A DNA stretch of 64,000 nucleotides, from the sequence record NZ_CP023785.1; one strand, 5' to 3'. Position numbers: made by a program. Of this stretch, positions 1 through 3,000 are shown in pieces; position 1 is the stretch's first letter; every line of letters begins with the position of its first letter. The DNA is from a plasmid.

Positions 1-3000
1 ATGACTGATTTTAAATTTTTTAAGGCGGATAGAGTTTACAACGAATTATTTTATCAATTTCCAAAAGTCTTTATTGTTTCTGACGAATACAAAAAAATGA
101 AAGATTCAACTAAGATTGCCTATATGCTTTTAAAAGCAAGATTAGAGATCGCAATCAGCAAACGGCAAATCGATGAAGAAGGTAATGTTTATTTTACTTA
201 TACGACAAATGAACTATGTAGAGTATTAAACTGCCAAAAACAAAAAGCGATAGCAATCAAAAAAGAGTTGGAATCCTTTGGTTTATTATTACAAAAGCAG
301 ATGGGATTTAACAAACAGTTAGGGAAAAATAATCCTAATAGACTATATCTAGCAGAATTAAAAGTCTCAGAAAATGATATCTACTTACTCGAAAAATTTG
401 ATAGAGAGAATAGGGAAAACGTTGATAAATCAGAGGGTATGAAAATCATACCCACCCTCGACGAAAAATCAGACGCTGAATCCCTTGGGGCTCAAGAGGG
501 TATGAAAATCATACCGTGCCAAAACGTTGATAAATCAGAGGGTATGAAAATCATACCAGAACTTAATAATAATATATTAGACACTAATAGACACAATATA
601 GACACTGAAAAAGACCGCCTACAAGATCAATTGTTGTTAGACAATTTTGAGACAATTATGACAAACGACAGCATTGCTACGTTTGTCCCTGAACGAGTAT
701 TAAATTTGATAAAAACATTTTCTTCAAGTTACAGTGAAGCTCAAAAAACCGTCCAGACTATTCATAATGCAAAGAAAAAAGCTGAAATAGAAAGTGGTAT
801 TTCGATAGTTTTTGAAGAACTCGATAGTTATTATGTCAATGCAGAACAAGAATTATACACGACACTGTTAAAAGCCTATCAAAAATTAAAAACCGAAAAA
901 GTCGAAAATATCCAGAACCTGATTTTTGTCTATGTAAAAAATTGGTTTATCGAAAAACCAATAGCTGCTAAAGTATCAAGTGAAAAACGTTTGAATTATG
1001 AAAGCTCCCCAAGCACTATTACGAAAGACTGGTTAGAGTGAAACTTTACTGACAAAGTGATTGTTGCTTCATGGAGTAACATTAAAATTAAAAATTTTTT
1101 ATTATTCTAATTATATTACGAATATTACAAAATAATAGCTATTTTAATAGAATTTATAAGTTAAAATATTATGATAAAAATCACAAACGTAGCCTTTTAC
1201 GTCATAAGTGTTAAAAGAAATAATTAATTTCAAATATAGAAAAGGGAACGTATGTTTGCATACTCCTTTTTTTTGAGTTATAATAATACGCGAAGAGAGA
1301 TAATTTCATTATTTAAACAAGCTAAAAATCTTGATATTACTTCTTTTCAGGCAATACGAATATTATTCGCTTACATTTTTTGTATAAATTTAATTGTCTG
1401 CTATGCTTGTGATGAATTGATTTTCGTTCTGCACTTTTGGATGATAAATTTGGACAATTGAAAATACAAAAAAAAGAAAGGCGGTATGAACTCGGAAGGC
1501 TGGTAACCTTCGTCAGCGTTCATACACGGCATTAAGATTTGGCCCTTAATGCGTTAACCTTTCAGTGTTACGGTATTACCCGCAATGGATTTAGTATAAC
1601 AGATATTCAAAAGTGATACCACTTTTTTTGGCTGTGTTAAGGTTAAAAATACGTGATATTACGATGAATCTATGCCTAAGCACAATGTTATAAAAATGTC
1701 CGTGTGGCTCTTTGCCGTATGACGAACGCTGAAATTAGAGGGAACGCATGTTTGGATGCGTTCCCTCTTTTTTGTTTGTCATGAACGAAAATCAATTCTC
1801 TATTTTTGAAAAATAACAAGAAAAACTTGTTAAAAATATTTAAAGAAATTGGGTGGTTTATTTTATGTCATATACAGGAATTTTGAGTCTCAAAGATATT
1901 TGTCACTACGGTAAACGGTGTACCGCTACAGAGAAAATCACGAAGAAACTATCAACTGGCCAAAGTAAAACCGTTGTGCAGTGTAAGAAATATATAATCC
2001 AGAAAGACAAAGTCTCAGAGGAAATGATTTATTACATTGGGAAACAAAAGCAAATAATTTTAAAAGATCCTATCCCCTTAAAAGAGCTATATCCAACAAT
2101 CAAACATGTTTATGACCAAAACGGTGTACTGATTGGTCGAAGAAAAAATGGAGTCTTGCGTTGTACCGCAAAAGGGATGGGGCGTTTGATCGGCTGAATT
2201 GATCATTCTCATAACTTGTATTTTATCGTTTTTCGCTTGCTTGAAAATATTGTCGAGACTTCTAAAGGAACTTAGAGTCACTAGAAAAATAAGGAGTAGA
2301 CTTGATCTATCAACAATTCCCTTCGGGGAGTGACGGGGTAGGTTTTAACGATTGGTAACGTAAAAAATTGGTCAATCGAGTAAATGCGCTTGTTTGGATA
2401 GTGGTGAAATGAATTTGTGTAAATAATAAGCGCAGAGTAAACAAGAGGGAATTTAGAAGTTAGACAAGTTAGAATAGCGTCTAGATTAATCATGAGCAGC
2501 TACTAAGGGATCTAGACTTTGACGCAAACTCATGGAATAAGGAGTAGGTCTTCTCGTAATGGGGAGGACGCACAAGAAATTGTGTCGTGTGCTGCAGTAC
2601 ATGTAGATACTTGCGAGGACGTTGATTATTGGATCAATCGAGCATTTACCGCTGTCTACTAGGGTTTCTCGTTTCGGACGCCATAAACGAGTCGAAATTT
2701 TTTATGTATTTTTAAGTAAACGAAAAACGATAAAATATGAACAAGTCCTGAATAAAGTGAAAAAATTGATATAAAACATAGAGAAAATGAAATTTACGTA
2801 ATGGAGGAATGACAAATGAAAAATTATGATCCGAATATACGATTGGGCACACATACTATTAAGGTTTCTTTCCAACGTTGGGATTACAAAGGATTTGTGA
2901 CGTTTAGAAGAGGCGGAAATTGTAAAGGATTAGATGTTTTAGCATTAGACGAGGATGATTTATACGATCAAACATTGACTGATAATCCAATTGGATTCGG

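What the first reader, a model, noticed from the sequence alone, without database searches (positions are those of the whole stretch)
1255..1775. Conserved promoter-to-terminator structured RNA module downstream of both RepA_N genes, with compensatory base changes
Two paralogous copies (1255-1775 and about 24482-25035) each have a sigma70-like promoter (TTTGCA-17/18-TATAAT), ~450 nt with no conserved ORF, and an identical strong intrinsic terminator, all directly upstream of a small Cys-containing gene. Where the copies differ, predicted helices are preserved. Copy 1 pairs cggTATGAAC...GTTCATAcacggc, whereas copy 2 pairs CCTGTGagac...gtcCACAGG at the same place. The inner GAAGG...CCTTC and ATTAAG...CTTAAT stems are kept while their loops change. 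Covariation like this argues for a functional RNA. It could be a cis-regulatory leader/attenuator (riboswitch-like) for the 110-aa gene, or a trans-acting RNA tied to replicon control. I do not recognise the fold as any named family.
Basis: seen in the sequence. Interest (0 to 1): 0.7.

Follow-up and report, generated by a model that had tools for sequence, protein, structure and literature searches.

The report
Antisense-controlled attenuator ahead of conjugation genes
The conserved non-coding stretch is the on/off leader of the plasmid's DNA-transfer operon, and it most likely works as a terminator/antiterminator switch set by a small antisense RNA, as in the pheromone plasmids of Enterococcus faecalis but without the pheromone parts.

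Summary
Both copies have the promoter, a ~480-nt leader without a credible ORF, a strong terminator and compensated hairpins.

The window is an E. faecium pLG1-type plasmid fused to a 55-kb pRUM-like conjugative plasmid, so the copies are orthologous modules of two plasmids. The 110-aa gene is TraE (pAD1 TraE1/ConAn1 antiterminator family). Its downstream non-coding stretch is conAn2-like.

The leader folds like the zipper-type attenuator published for pLS20 in July 2026. A long imperfect stem (1560-1734) can extend by pairing 1549-1563 with the terminator's 5' arm.

The covarying hairpins fold best on the minus strand. There they form a ~120-nt RNA (1586->~1470) with an extended -10 (TGTTATACT) and a U8 tail. 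Its topology and position match Rfam Anti-Q (RF00388), which hits the equivalent site in a pAD1-like plasmid but not this window.

Published dRNA-seq of E. faecium AUS0004 p1 maps both RNAs (sRNA_123, sRNA_124) at the predicted nucleotides. That paper does not discuss them.

Best reading: countertranscript-driven attenuation of traE and the conjugation operon, with no PrgX/TraA or peptide gene. The RNAs are shown; the mechanism is inferred. This is a new variant of a known kind, of moderate interest.

The parts
1255..1284 (+). Sense promoter P1 (TTTGCA-N18-TATAAT). The inferred start is ~1292. Copy 2: 24490-24518, start ~24526.
   Evidence: Best site in the promoter scan. Present in 52 of 55 loci. 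In AUS0004 p1 the homologous -10 (1274-1279) is followed by the dRNA-seq start 1287(+).
1292..1774 (+). Sense leader RNA (~483 nt) that ends at the attenuator terminator. Copy 2: ~24526-25026.
   Evidence: Predicted to be highly structured (-137 to -161 kcal/mol in 7 variants). No credible conserved ORF. Its 5' part was detected as sRNA_123 in AUS0004 p1.
1399..1407 (+). Second sense promoter P2, an extended -10 (TGCTATGCT). The inferred start is 1414. Copy 2: 24649-24657, start 24664.
   Evidence: The dRNA-seq start 1425(+) in AUS0004 p1 lies 7 nt after the homologous TGCTATGCT (1410-1418).
1414..1429 (+). Left arm of a perfect 16-nt inverted repeat (GAATTGATTTTCGTTC). It begins exactly at the P2 start. 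Copy 2: 24664-24679.
   Evidence: I5. The longest perfect inverted repeat in 200 dinucleotide shuffles is 14 nt. The arm is unchanged in 47 of 52 loci. Coincidence with the mapped start.
1470..1586 (-). Anti-Q-like countertranscript (~117-123 nt). It has a 5' hairpin, then a 7-bp closing stem that holds hairpin 2 and hairpin 1, then a U8 tail (plus-strand A-run 1468-1475). Copy 2: ~24720-24838 (-).
   Evidence: Folds in 12 homologues. z = -4.6 and -6.1. Model R1 hits 55 loci. Pair counts. sRNA_124 in AUS0004 p1 runs 1481-1599(-) and is enriched after TEX treatment. Same topology as RF00388 on L011.
1593..1601 (-). Extended -10 promoter of the countertranscript (minus strand TGTTATACT). Copy 2: 24845-24853.
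   Evidence: Present in 51 of 55 loci; the four without it are cut by IS1216. The mapped start in AUS0004 lies 7 nt downstream. The pAD1-like L011 has the identical TGTTATACT ahead of its Anti-Q RNA.
1483..1528 (.). Hairpin 1 (outer and inner stems), the site of the compensatory changes. Copy 2: 24733-24779.
   Evidence: Helix 4 has 7 pairs changed on both sides. It is a local peak of variability between conserved blocks.
1529..1552 (.). Hairpin 2: an invariant 8-bp stem (GCATTAAG/CTTAATGC) with a hypervariable loop. On the sense RNA it is the analogue of SL-2 in the zipper attenuator. Copy 2: 24780-24804.
   Evidence: The stem is invariant in 22 of 22 distinct sequences. It carries 12 different loops.
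1549..1565 (+). Preemptor (ATGCGTT..CCTTTCAG). It is complementary to the terminator's 5' arm and to CTGAAA (1729-1734). Copy 2: 24801-24817.
   Evidence: Best duplex partner of the 5' arm (-14.1 kcal/mol). It pairs with the 5' arm in the nascent-RNA minimum-energy fold of all 6 variants tested.
1560..1734 (+). Long imperfect stem-loop, the analogue of ext-SL-3. Copy 2: ~24812-24986.
   Evidence: It is almost invariant, so covariation cannot be tested.
1737..1774 (+). Intrinsic terminator (attenuator): 13-bp stem plus T6, ending 90 nt before the traE ATG. Copy 2: 24989-25026.
   Evidence: -23.3 kcal/mol. Found in 44 of the 55 loci; in the other 11 the regex gave no match, three because the contig ended and at least six because an IS cuts the region.
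1783..1798 (+). Right arm of the 16-nt inverted repeat (GAACGAAAATCAATTC), just past the terminator. Copy 2: 25035-25050.
   Evidence: Invariant in 48 of 48 loci.
1865..2197 (+). traE, a homologue of pAD1 TraE1 (small ConAn1-type antitermination protein). Copy 2: 25117-25449.
   Evidence: NCBIfam NF041439, 146 bits against a cut-off of 100. 34-37% identical to E. faecalis TraE/TraE1. PMC8191782 places TraE/PrgR proteins in the ConAn1 family.
2198..2815 (+). conAn2-like non-coding RNA region. Copy 2: from 25450 to about 26000.
   Evidence: nhmmer E = 1.7e-45 and 5.8e-38 to the region downstream of traE1 in E. faecalis L010 and L011, with compensated stems. The conAn2 function of the pAD1 region is from PMC8191782.

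Best explanation
The region is the regulatory leader at the head of the conjugation operon of E. faecium pLG1/pRUM-type plasmids.

**Proposed mechanism.**
1. Promoter P1 (and a second promoter, P2) transcribes a ~480-nt sense leader.
2. That leader can take either of two folds.
   - Terminator fold: hairpin 2 and the 13-bp terminator (1737-1768) both form, and transcription stops before traE.
   - Zipper antiterminator fold: the long stem 1560-1734 extends when 1549-1563 pairs with the terminator's 5' arm. RNA polymerase then reads into traE (ConAn1) and conAn2, which make it terminator-proof for the pilus and type IV secretion genes.
3. A constitutive ~120-nt countertranscript starts at 1586 on the minus strand and ends at ~1470. 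It is perfectly complementary to hairpin 1, hairpin 2, the preemptor and the first ~27 nt of the long stem.
4. Binding of this RNA to the nascent leader, probably starting with loop-loop contacts, blocks the zipper and so enforces termination. It may also trigger cleavage of the leader.
5. Expression therefore needs sense transcription to outrun the antisense RNA.

**Shown.** Both RNAs, their ends and their promoters (in a 97%-identical homologue); the covariation; the TraE and conAn2 homology.

**Inferred.** The attenuation switch and its control by the antisense RNA.
For: **Gene context.**
- traE belongs to NF041439 and resembles pAD1-type TraE1.
- The downstream RNA is homologous to the pAD1 conAn2 region (PMC8191782).
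- The operon continues into sortase/pilin genes, VirD4 and a pLS20_p028-family gene.

**Zipper anatomy.**
- The nascent-RNA minimum-energy fold pairs the terminator's 5' arm with 1549-1563 in 6 of 6 variants.
- This matches the cATT description in PMC13401043.
- That paper finds predicted terminators ahead of conAn1 in 339 of 423 other plasmid sequences. It names a countertranscript as a possible trigger.

**Countertranscript.**
- Conserved extended -10 and U8 tail.
- z = -4.6 to -6.1.
- 96.4% of cells paired, and 40 cells with double changes against 0 of 500 shuffles.
- G:U 83 cells against A.C 19 cells.
- Same topology, position and -10 as the Rfam Anti-Q hit in pAD1-like L011 (124 bits).

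**Experiment.** dRNA-seq of AUS0004 p1 maps sRNA_124 at 1481-1599(-) and sRNA_123 at 1287-1492(+), exactly at the predicted nucleotides.

**Precedent.** Anti-Q enforces termination at IRS1 in pCF10 (PMC3181467; PMC7117660).

**Inducibility.** traE on a pLG1-like plasmid was upregulated on colonic epithelium (PMC11134301).
Against: - No functional test exists for these plasmids.
- At equilibrium the terminator fold is ~18 kcal/mol more stable than the antiterminator fold (-84.5 vs -66.1). In pLS20 the two are similar, so the zipper may rarely form.
- The antiterminator helix shows no covariation, because its 3' partner is invariant.
- The covariation rests on three haplotype classes, and the alignment was fitted to the model.
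- RF00388 does not score the window even at E <= 10. Model R1 does not hit the E. faecalis loci. Homology to Anti-Q is therefore architectural, not demonstrated.
- In AUS0004 the annotated sense RNA ends at 1492, at the edge of the antisense overlap, and not at the terminator. Cleavage or polymerase collision could be the main effect.
- One metagenome contig (L018) has mismatched arms.
Confidence: 0.68

Rival explanations
1. The region is a purely cis-acting leader. The sense RNA alone decides between terminator and antiterminator, in response to a protein, a metabolite or transcription speed, as in pLS20 where no antisense RNA is known. The minus-strand RNA would then be irrelevant or serve another purpose.
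For: The zipper anatomy needs no antisense RNA. pLS20-type attenuators work in reporter constructs and in vitro without one (PMC13401043). The sense strand can form most of the same helices (89.2% of cells paired).
Against: The countertranscript is expressed. Its promoter and terminator are conserved in all intact loci. It covers exactly the SL-2 analogue and the preemptor. The G:U excess and the U-tail place the selected fold on the minus strand. No riboswitch family matches.
Confidence: 0.15
2. The antisense RNA acts mainly by RNase III cleavage of the sense-antisense duplex, or by collision between converging polymerases, rather than by switching the terminator. The terminator would then be a constitutive insulator.
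For: In AUS0004 both sense RNAs are annotated as ending at 1492, 11 nt inside the overlap. [quoted passage not shown]
Against: The preemptor-terminator complementarity is kept in all variants. Anti-Q itself works by attenuation without host factors. The sRNA ends in that table are derived from coverage and may not be true 3' ends.
Confidence: 0.1
3. The RNA pair controls replication or incompatibility of the adjacent RepA_N replicon.
For: The element sits directly downstream of repA in most plasmids. Its variable hairpins differ between the two replicons in the window.
Against: It does not overlap repA or the repA leader. pEfm12493, which has a different replicon, keeps it upstream of traE. 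pRUM keeps repA although IS1216 removed the antisense promoter and everything beyond it. From my own knowledge, known RepA_N antisense controls lie upstream of rep.
Confidence: 0.04
4. It is a DNA-level element (oriT, a single-strand initiation site or a protein-binding palindrome) or a type I toxin-antitoxin locus.
For: Inverted repeats are also expected in such elements. Convergent RNAs resemble the par locus of pAD1.
Against: The excess of G:U over A.C (83 cells vs 19) is specific to one strand, which points to RNA. The U-tail and the mapped primary transcripts agree. There is no conserved hydrophobic toxin ORF with a ribosome-binding site.
Confidence: 0.03

Closest known systems
Anti-Q RNA of pCF10 and mD of pAD1 (Rfam RF00388): countertranscript-driven attenuation of the pheromone-inducible conjugation operon
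   Same: - A ~100-120-nt RNA is made from a promoter inside the sense leader and converges with it.
- It is complementary to the middle of a 380-480-nt leader that ends in an intrinsic terminator ahead of the conjugation genes.
- The topology is the same: a 5' hairpin, a 7-bp closing stem, and two hairpins of which the second has an internal loop.
- The extended -10 (TGTTATACT) is identical to the one in a pAD1-like plasmid.
- TraE1 lies downstream, as in pAD1.
   Different: - RF00388 does not score it, and leader sequence similarity is not detectable.
- The RNA is not the 5' end of a prgX/traA repressor mRNA. No such gene, no prgZ/traC and no inhibitor-peptide ORF is present.
- It ends in a strong U8 terminator.
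- No pheromone response is known for these plasmids.
Zipper-type transcriptional attenuator cATT of pLS20 (Gonzalez-Alvarez et al., NAR 2026, PMC13401043)
   Same: - A ~450-480-nt leader lies directly upstream of conAn1.
- It has three segments: a small stem-loop, a long imperfect stem-loop and an intrinsic terminator.
- The 3' arm of the small stem-loop is complementary to the terminator's 5' arm, which extends the long stem (paper).
   Different: - The terminator fold is ~18 kcal/mol more stable here.
- The SL-2 analogue is a strong, invariant 8-bp stem rather than a weak one.
- An expressed countertranscript covers it, whereas for pLS20 the trigger is unknown.
- There is no sequence similarity.
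- There is no Rco/Rap/Phr module.
conAn bipartite processive antitermination system (Miguel-Arribas et al., NAR 2021, PMC8191782)
   Same: A small ConAn1-type protein (TraE) is followed by a ~600-nt structured non-coding region, at the start of a long conjugation operon that carries pLS20-type transfer genes.
   Different: This is the cargo controlled by the finding, not the finding itself. The E. faecium version has not been tested.
Antisense-RNA attenuation of rep genes in pT181, pIP501 and pAMbeta1
   Same: The logic is the same: a countertranscript binds the nascent leader through loops and favours a terminator. In pIP501 two loop pairs are needed (reference cited in PMC3181467).
   Different: Those systems control replication initiator genes and lie upstream of rep. 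This one lies downstream of repA and controls transfer genes.

Membership tests
Rfam Anti-Q_RNA (RF00388) | Covariance-model score at or above the gathering threshold (45 bits) | tested here: not met
   No hit at the gathering threshold, and none at E <= 10 on 1000-2900 or 1440-1620. Positive control: L011 scores 124 bits.
Rfam Anti-Q_RNA (RF00388) | Secondary-structure topology: a 5' hairpin, then a closing stem that holds two hairpins | tested here: met
   The minimum-energy folds of 12 homologues and the pair counts match the RF00388 consensus structure line.
Rfam Anti-Q_RNA (RF00388) | Antisense to the leader of the conjugation operon, upstream of its attenuating terminator | tested here: met
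   Coordinates 1470-1586(-) lie inside the leader 1292-1774(+). Both RNAs are mapped in AUS0004 p1.
Rfam Anti-Q_RNA (RF00388) | Encoded at the 5' end of the prgX/traA repressor transcript of a pheromone-responsive plasmid | tested here: not met
   Downstream on the minus strand lie only the P1 promoter and the 3' end of repA. No prgX/traA-like gene is annotated there. Compare L011, which has traA.
Rfam Anti-Q_RNA (RF00388) | Enhances termination of the sense transcript | not testable with these tools
   This needs in vitro transcription or reporter assays.
Zipper-type attenuator (cATT) | Located in the leader immediately upstream of conAn1, with an intrinsic terminator just before its ribosome-binding site | tested here: met
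   Terminator at 1737-1774 and traE ATG at 1865.
Zipper-type attenuator (cATT) | A long imperfect stem-loop flanked by a small upstream stem-loop and the terminator, with complementarity between the upstream stem-loop's 3' arm and the terminator's 5' arm | tested here: met
   in 6 of 6 variants. This is prediction only.
Zipper-type attenuator (cATT) | The two conformers have similar free energy, and the upstream stem-loop is weak | tested here: not met
   -84.5 vs -66.1 kcal/mol in copy 1 and -85.0 vs -67.1 in copy 2. Hairpin 2 is an invariant 8-bp stem.
Zipper-type attenuator (cATT) | Attenuation shown by reporter or in vitro assays | not testable with these tools
   -
conAn antitermination system (context) | A ConAn1-family protein followed by a conAn2 RNA region at the start of the operon | tested here: met
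   NF041439 at 146 bits. nhmmer homology to the pAD1-type region downstream of traE1. The family assignment of TraE/PrgR is from PMC8191782.
Riboswitch or other Rfam cis-regulatory family | A match to a curated model | tested here: not met
   Only chance-level hits: for example Phe_leader at 22.6 bits against a threshold of 55, and AdoCbl-II at 11.9 against 36.5.
Type I toxin-antitoxin (par/Fst type) | A conserved small hydrophobic toxin ORF with a ribosome-binding site on one of two convergent RNAs | tested here: not met
   ORF lists for 6 variants. Only ORFs without a Shine-Dalgarno sequence, inside conserved RNA stems.

The most novel reading that the evidence does not exclude
The hypervariable hairpin-2 loop and the co-varying hairpin-1 stem may be specificity determinants under diversifying selection. 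Each plasmid lineage would then have its own private antisense/leader pair. Related plasmids that share a cell, or that are fused as in this window, could switch their transfer operons independently. Conversely, a resident plasmid could silence the transfer genes of an incoming plasmid of the same variant through its antisense RNA acting in trans. It would also mean that zipper-type attenuators, whose trigger is unknown in pLS20, are in general set by countertranscripts.
Probability: 0.25. Interest if true: 0.7.

Novelty: new variant of a known kind. Interest (0 to 1): 0.5.

Why it matters
**Clinical relevance.** pLG1- and pRUM-type plasmids are the main carriers of vancomycin resistance and colonisation traits in hospital E. 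faecium. I found no description of how their transfer genes are switched on in the papers I could search.

**What this adds.** The analysis joins three separate lines of work:
- Anti-Q/mD attenuation in E. faecalis pheromone plasmids;
- the conAn antiterminator;
- the zipper attenuator published in 2026.

Together they give one testable circuit for these plasmids. The analysis also assigns a function to two uncharacterised RNAs already catalogued by dRNA-seq (sRNA_123 and sRNA_124).

**Open question it addresses.** The pLS20 paper left open what flips a zipper attenuator into its terminator form. This system offers a natural case in which that can be tested.

**Possible applications.** The variant-specific hairpins could explain cross-talk, or its absence, between co-resident plasmids. 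They could also serve as typing markers or antisense targets.

Tried and rejected
- **Rfam.** Scans at the gathering threshold and at E <= 10 found nothing in the region.
- **Leader peptide.** I looked for an iad/prgQ-like inhibitor peptide. A leaderless ATG in the v2 and v3 variants (MKRGNSLIYPS) is absent from copy 1 (read from the sequences). The 69-aa ORF of copy 1 starts upstream of the -10 and is broken by a 16-nt indel in copy 2.
- **Leader homology to E. faecalis.** nhmmer with a profile of the E. faecium leader found no similarity upstream of traE1 in the E. faecalis loci. Only traE and the downstream RNA matched.
- **Species-level genome scan.** It returned only 2 loci. The diversity came from a pattern scan of metagenome contigs (43 loci).
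- **MAFFT alignment of the small RNA.** It misaligned the outer stem, so I refitted the sequences with a covariance model.
- **Long-range pairing in copy 1.** 1512-1524 can pair with 1717-1732, but copy 2 does not keep this (read from the sequences), so I dropped it.
- **Covariation in the long stem.** The region is nearly invariant, so there is no power.
- **Papers not held.** Tomita & Clewell 2000 (mD), Johnson 2010 and Shokeen 2010 could not be read. Details on mD therefore rest on reviews and on my own knowledge.
- **Terminator table of the dRNA-seq paper.** The rows I read for AUS0004 p1 (first entry at 6126-6161) show no terminator near 1750-1781. I did not read every row.
- **Replicon-control and toxin-antitoxin readings.** Both were considered and rejected (see the rival explanations).
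Full report
**1. What the window is**

The first 5.8 kb are identical to E. faecium plasmid NZ_CP017793.1. A 601-nt query around the finding matches 656 plasmid records, 652 of them from Enterococcus.

The finding lies between repA (1-1041) and a 110-aa gene (1865-2197) that NCBI names TraE. 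The second copy sits in a stretch (window 20000-34000) that is 100% identical to ~55-kb conjugative pRUM-like plasmids. The window is therefore a cointegrate of a pLG1-type plasmid and a pRUM-like plasmid. The two "paralogues" are orthologous modules brought together by that fusion.

A second cointegrate, NZ_CP071930.1, shows the same pairing of variants.

**2. Check of the observation**

All the stated features are present.
- Promoter: TTTGCA-N18-TATAAT at 1255-1284 is the best promoter-like site of the region. It is present in 52 of 55 related loci.
- Terminator: a 13-bp stem at 1737-1768 followed by a T-run.
- Extent of the duplication: the two copies align over ~1.6 kb. They diverge up to about 1560 and are ~99% identical beyond that.
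- Sequence classes: ten plasmid loci and 43 metagenome contigs give 22 distinct sequences in three classes.

| Class | Outer stem of hairpin 1 | Inner stem of hairpin 1 |
|---|---|---|
| v1 | GTATGAAC / GTTCATAC | GAAGG / CCTTC |
| v2 | CCTGTG.GAC / GTC.CACAGG | GAAGG / CCTTC |
| v3 | CCTGTA.. / ..TACAGG | GGAGA / TCTCC |

Hairpin 2 (GCATTAAG/CTTAATGC) never varies in its stem but carries 12 different loops. Variability along the leader peaks at 1478-1547, between two conserved blocks.

**3. Which strand carries the structure**

On the minus strand, hairpin 1 is followed by CUUUCUUUUUUUU, which makes it an intrinsic terminator. About 120 nt upstream on that strand lies an extended -10, TGTTATACT.

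The predicted RNA has three parts:
- a 5' hairpin;
- a 7-bp closing stem that encloses hairpin 2 and hairpin 1;
- a U8 tail.

Twelve homologues give this same fold. The z-scores are -4.6 to -6.1 on the minus strand and -2.2 to -5.5 on the plus strand.

I built a covariance model (R1) from these sequences. It hits 55 loci. On the resulting alignment:
- 96.4% of cells are paired;
- 8 pairs changed on both sides (12 of 500 shuffles reach this);
- 40 cells carry double changes (0 of 500 shuffles);
- slid controls give 0-1 such pairs.

G:U pairs occupy 83 cells in 9 pairs, against 19 A.C cells in 3 pairs. The same helices are 96.4% paired on the minus strand and 89.2% on the plus strand.

Three caveats apply. 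Only three haplotype classes exist. The alignment was fitted to the model. The structure was derived from the minus-strand fold, which favours G:U by construction.

**4. Experimental support found in the literature**

A dRNA-seq study of E. faecium AUS0004 (PMC7724050, Supplementary Table 7) lists two RNAs on plasmid p1. I used record CP003352.1 for p1, taking its coordinates to equal those of NC_017032.1. There, repA is at 1-1041 and the gene annotated "regulatory protein TraE1" is at 1878-2210.
- sRNA_124: 1481-1599 (-), start at 1599.
- sRNA_123: 1287-1492 (+), starts at 1287 and 1425.

Both are enriched after TEX treatment. In that sequence, which is 97% identical to copy 2:
- start 1287 lies 8 nt after the P1 -10;
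- start 1599(-) lies 7 nt after the minus-strand TATACT and is the G of GUUACGG, the predicted 5' end;
- the 3' end at 1481 lies inside the U-tail;
- start 1425 lies 7 nt after a second extended -10 (TGCTATGCT).

The main text of that paper does not mention either RNA.

**5. What the neighbours are**

TraE scores 146 bits on NCBIfam NF041439. It is 34-37% identical to the TraE/TraE1 proteins of E. faecalis pheromone plasmids.

PMC8191782 places proteins annotated as TraE (after pAD1) and PrgR (after pCF10) in the ConAn1 family. ConAn1 is the protein half of a processive antitermination system. The RNA half, conAn2, is encoded just downstream.

Window 2198-2815 is homologous at the nucleotide level to the region downstream of traE1 in two E. 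faecalis plasmids (nhmmer E = 1.7e-45 and 5.8e-38). One stem shows a compensatory change: CTCGTTT...AAACGAG against CTAGTTT...AAACTAG.

Downstream follow sortase/pilin genes, a VirD4-like gene and a pLS20_p028-family gene.

**6. The sense leader as an attenuator**

PMC13401043 (July 2026) describes the 456-nt leader ahead of conAn1 in pLS20 as a "zipper-type" attenuator. It has a weak stem-loop, a long imperfect stem-loop and a terminator. The 3' arm of the weak stem-loop is complementary to the terminator's 5' arm.

The same anatomy appears here.
- In the nascent RNA, before the terminator's 3' arm is made, the minimum-energy fold of all six variants pairs GAGGGAACGCAU (1738-1749) with AUGCGUU..CCUU (1549-1563). 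This extends the long stem 1560-1734.
- One difference: the full-length terminator fold is ~18 kcal/mol more stable than the antiterminator fold.

The countertranscript is complementary to hairpin 1, hairpin 2, the preemptor and the base of the long stem. It therefore covers exactly what the zipper needs.

**7. Comparison with pheromone plasmids**

In the pAD1-like locus L011 the order is: traA (minus strand), iad, a large hairpin, TGTTATACT on the minus strand, terminators, traE1.

Rfam Anti-Q_RNA (RF00388) hits L011 at 3549-3651(-) with 124 bits. That is the position-equivalent RNA, and its consensus structure has the same topology as the E. faecium RNA.

In pCF10, Anti-Q binds nascent prgQ RNA and enforces termination at IRS1 (PMC3181467 and PMC7117660).

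However:
- RF00388 does not score the window;
- R1 does not score the E. faecalis loci;
- no traA/prgX gene and no peptide gene is present.

The element therefore works like Anti-Q, but it fails the sequence-model test and the gene-context test for membership of that family.

**8. Best explanation and what remains open**

The best explanation is countertranscript-driven attenuation of traE/conAn, and hence of the conjugation operon (confidence ~0.68).
- Shown: the RNAs, their ends and the covariation.
- Inferred: the switch itself.

In AUS0004 the annotated sense RNA ends at 1492, at the edge of the overlap. Cleavage or polymerase collision may therefore contribute.

traE on a pLG1-like plasmid was induced on colonic epithelium (PMC11134301), so the block can be lifted.

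**9. An unexplained feature**

A perfect 16-nt inverted repeat (1414-1429 and 1783-1798) brackets the antisense gene, the long stem and the terminator. The longest perfect inverted repeat in 200 shuffles is 14 nt. Its left arm begins exactly at the mapped P2 start.

Read-through P2 transcripts could therefore pair their 5' end with the sequence just past the terminator. The function of this is unknown.

**10. Verdict**

- This is a new variant of a known kind, of moderate interest (0.5).

Noticed in passing
window 2198-2815 (copy 2: 25450 to ~26000): A ~600-nt conserved non-coding region lies downstream of traE. Parts of it are more conserved between E. faecium and E. faecalis than traE itself, and its stems show compensatory changes. 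It is most likely the conAn2 antitermination RNA.
   Followed up: partly
window 1414-1429 and 1783-1798 (copy 2: 24664-24679 and 25035-25050): A perfect 16-nt inverted repeat brackets the antisense gene, the long stem and the terminator (0 of 200 shuffles reach 16). The left arm starts exactly at a transcription start mapped in AUS0004 p1. Its function is unknown; it could be a 5'-3' clamp or a processing site in read-through RNA.
   Followed up: partly
window 1672-1722 (copy 2: 24924-24974): A conserved 16-aa ORF, MPKHNVIKMSVWLFAV (W changed to G in copy 2), lies in the 3' strand of the long stem and stops 14 nt before the terminator. It has a basic N-terminus and a hydrophobic C-terminal 7-8 residues, as in pheromone-inhibitor precursors, but no Shine-Dalgarno sequence. 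It may be chance.
   Followed up: partly
window 1243-1261 vs 1739-1757: The 19 nt that overlap the -35 of P1 (AGGGAACGTATGTTTGCAT) repeat the terminator's 5' arm plus loop (AGGGAACGCATGTTTGGAT; 17 of 19 identical). The meaning is unknown.
   Followed up: no
window 13454-13671 (-): This is the only Rfam hit at the gathering threshold in the window: SpF66_sRNA at 49 bits. In the near-identical record a 'putative holin-like toxin' gene lies next to it (13755-13877). In AUS0004 p1 the same family hit is sRNA_128, which overlaps the convergent sRNA_127. It is probably a type I toxin-antitoxin pair.
   Followed up: partly
window 420-560 and 23660-23790: There are tandem repeats inside both repA genes. 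Copy 1 has three copies of CAGAGGGTATGAAAATCATACC, and copy 2 has repeats of GGAAATGCGGAAATCGCAC. From my own knowledge, these fit the internal iteron origin typical of RepA_N replicons.
   Followed up: no
window 20000-34000: This stretch is 100% identical to ~55-kb conjugative pRUM-like plasmids, whereas window 1-5800 matches pLG1-type megaplasmids. The window is therefore a cointegrate that carries two replication-plus-transfer-leader modules.
   Followed up: yes
L018:948-1071 (metagenome contig SKEL01002769.1): One sequence combines the v1 arm of hairpin 1 on one side with the v2 arm on the other, which breaks the outer stem. It is either a recombinant or an assembly chimera from a sample that held both variants.
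   Followed up: no
window ~1503-1509 vs 24754-24760: In the inner loop of hairpin 1 the two copies differ by an exact 3-nt inversion: GGT in copy 1 and ACC in copy 2 on the plus strand. This looks like a loop inversion templated by strand switching.
   Followed up: no
L002 (pRUM) 3240-3421; also L017, L019, L029: In pRUM-type plasmids, IS1216 cuts the element directly after the part that encodes the antisense RNA's 5' hairpin. This removes the antisense promoter, the long stem, the terminator and traE. Other plasmids (L007, L008) carry ISL3-family insertions inside the leader.
   Followed up: partly
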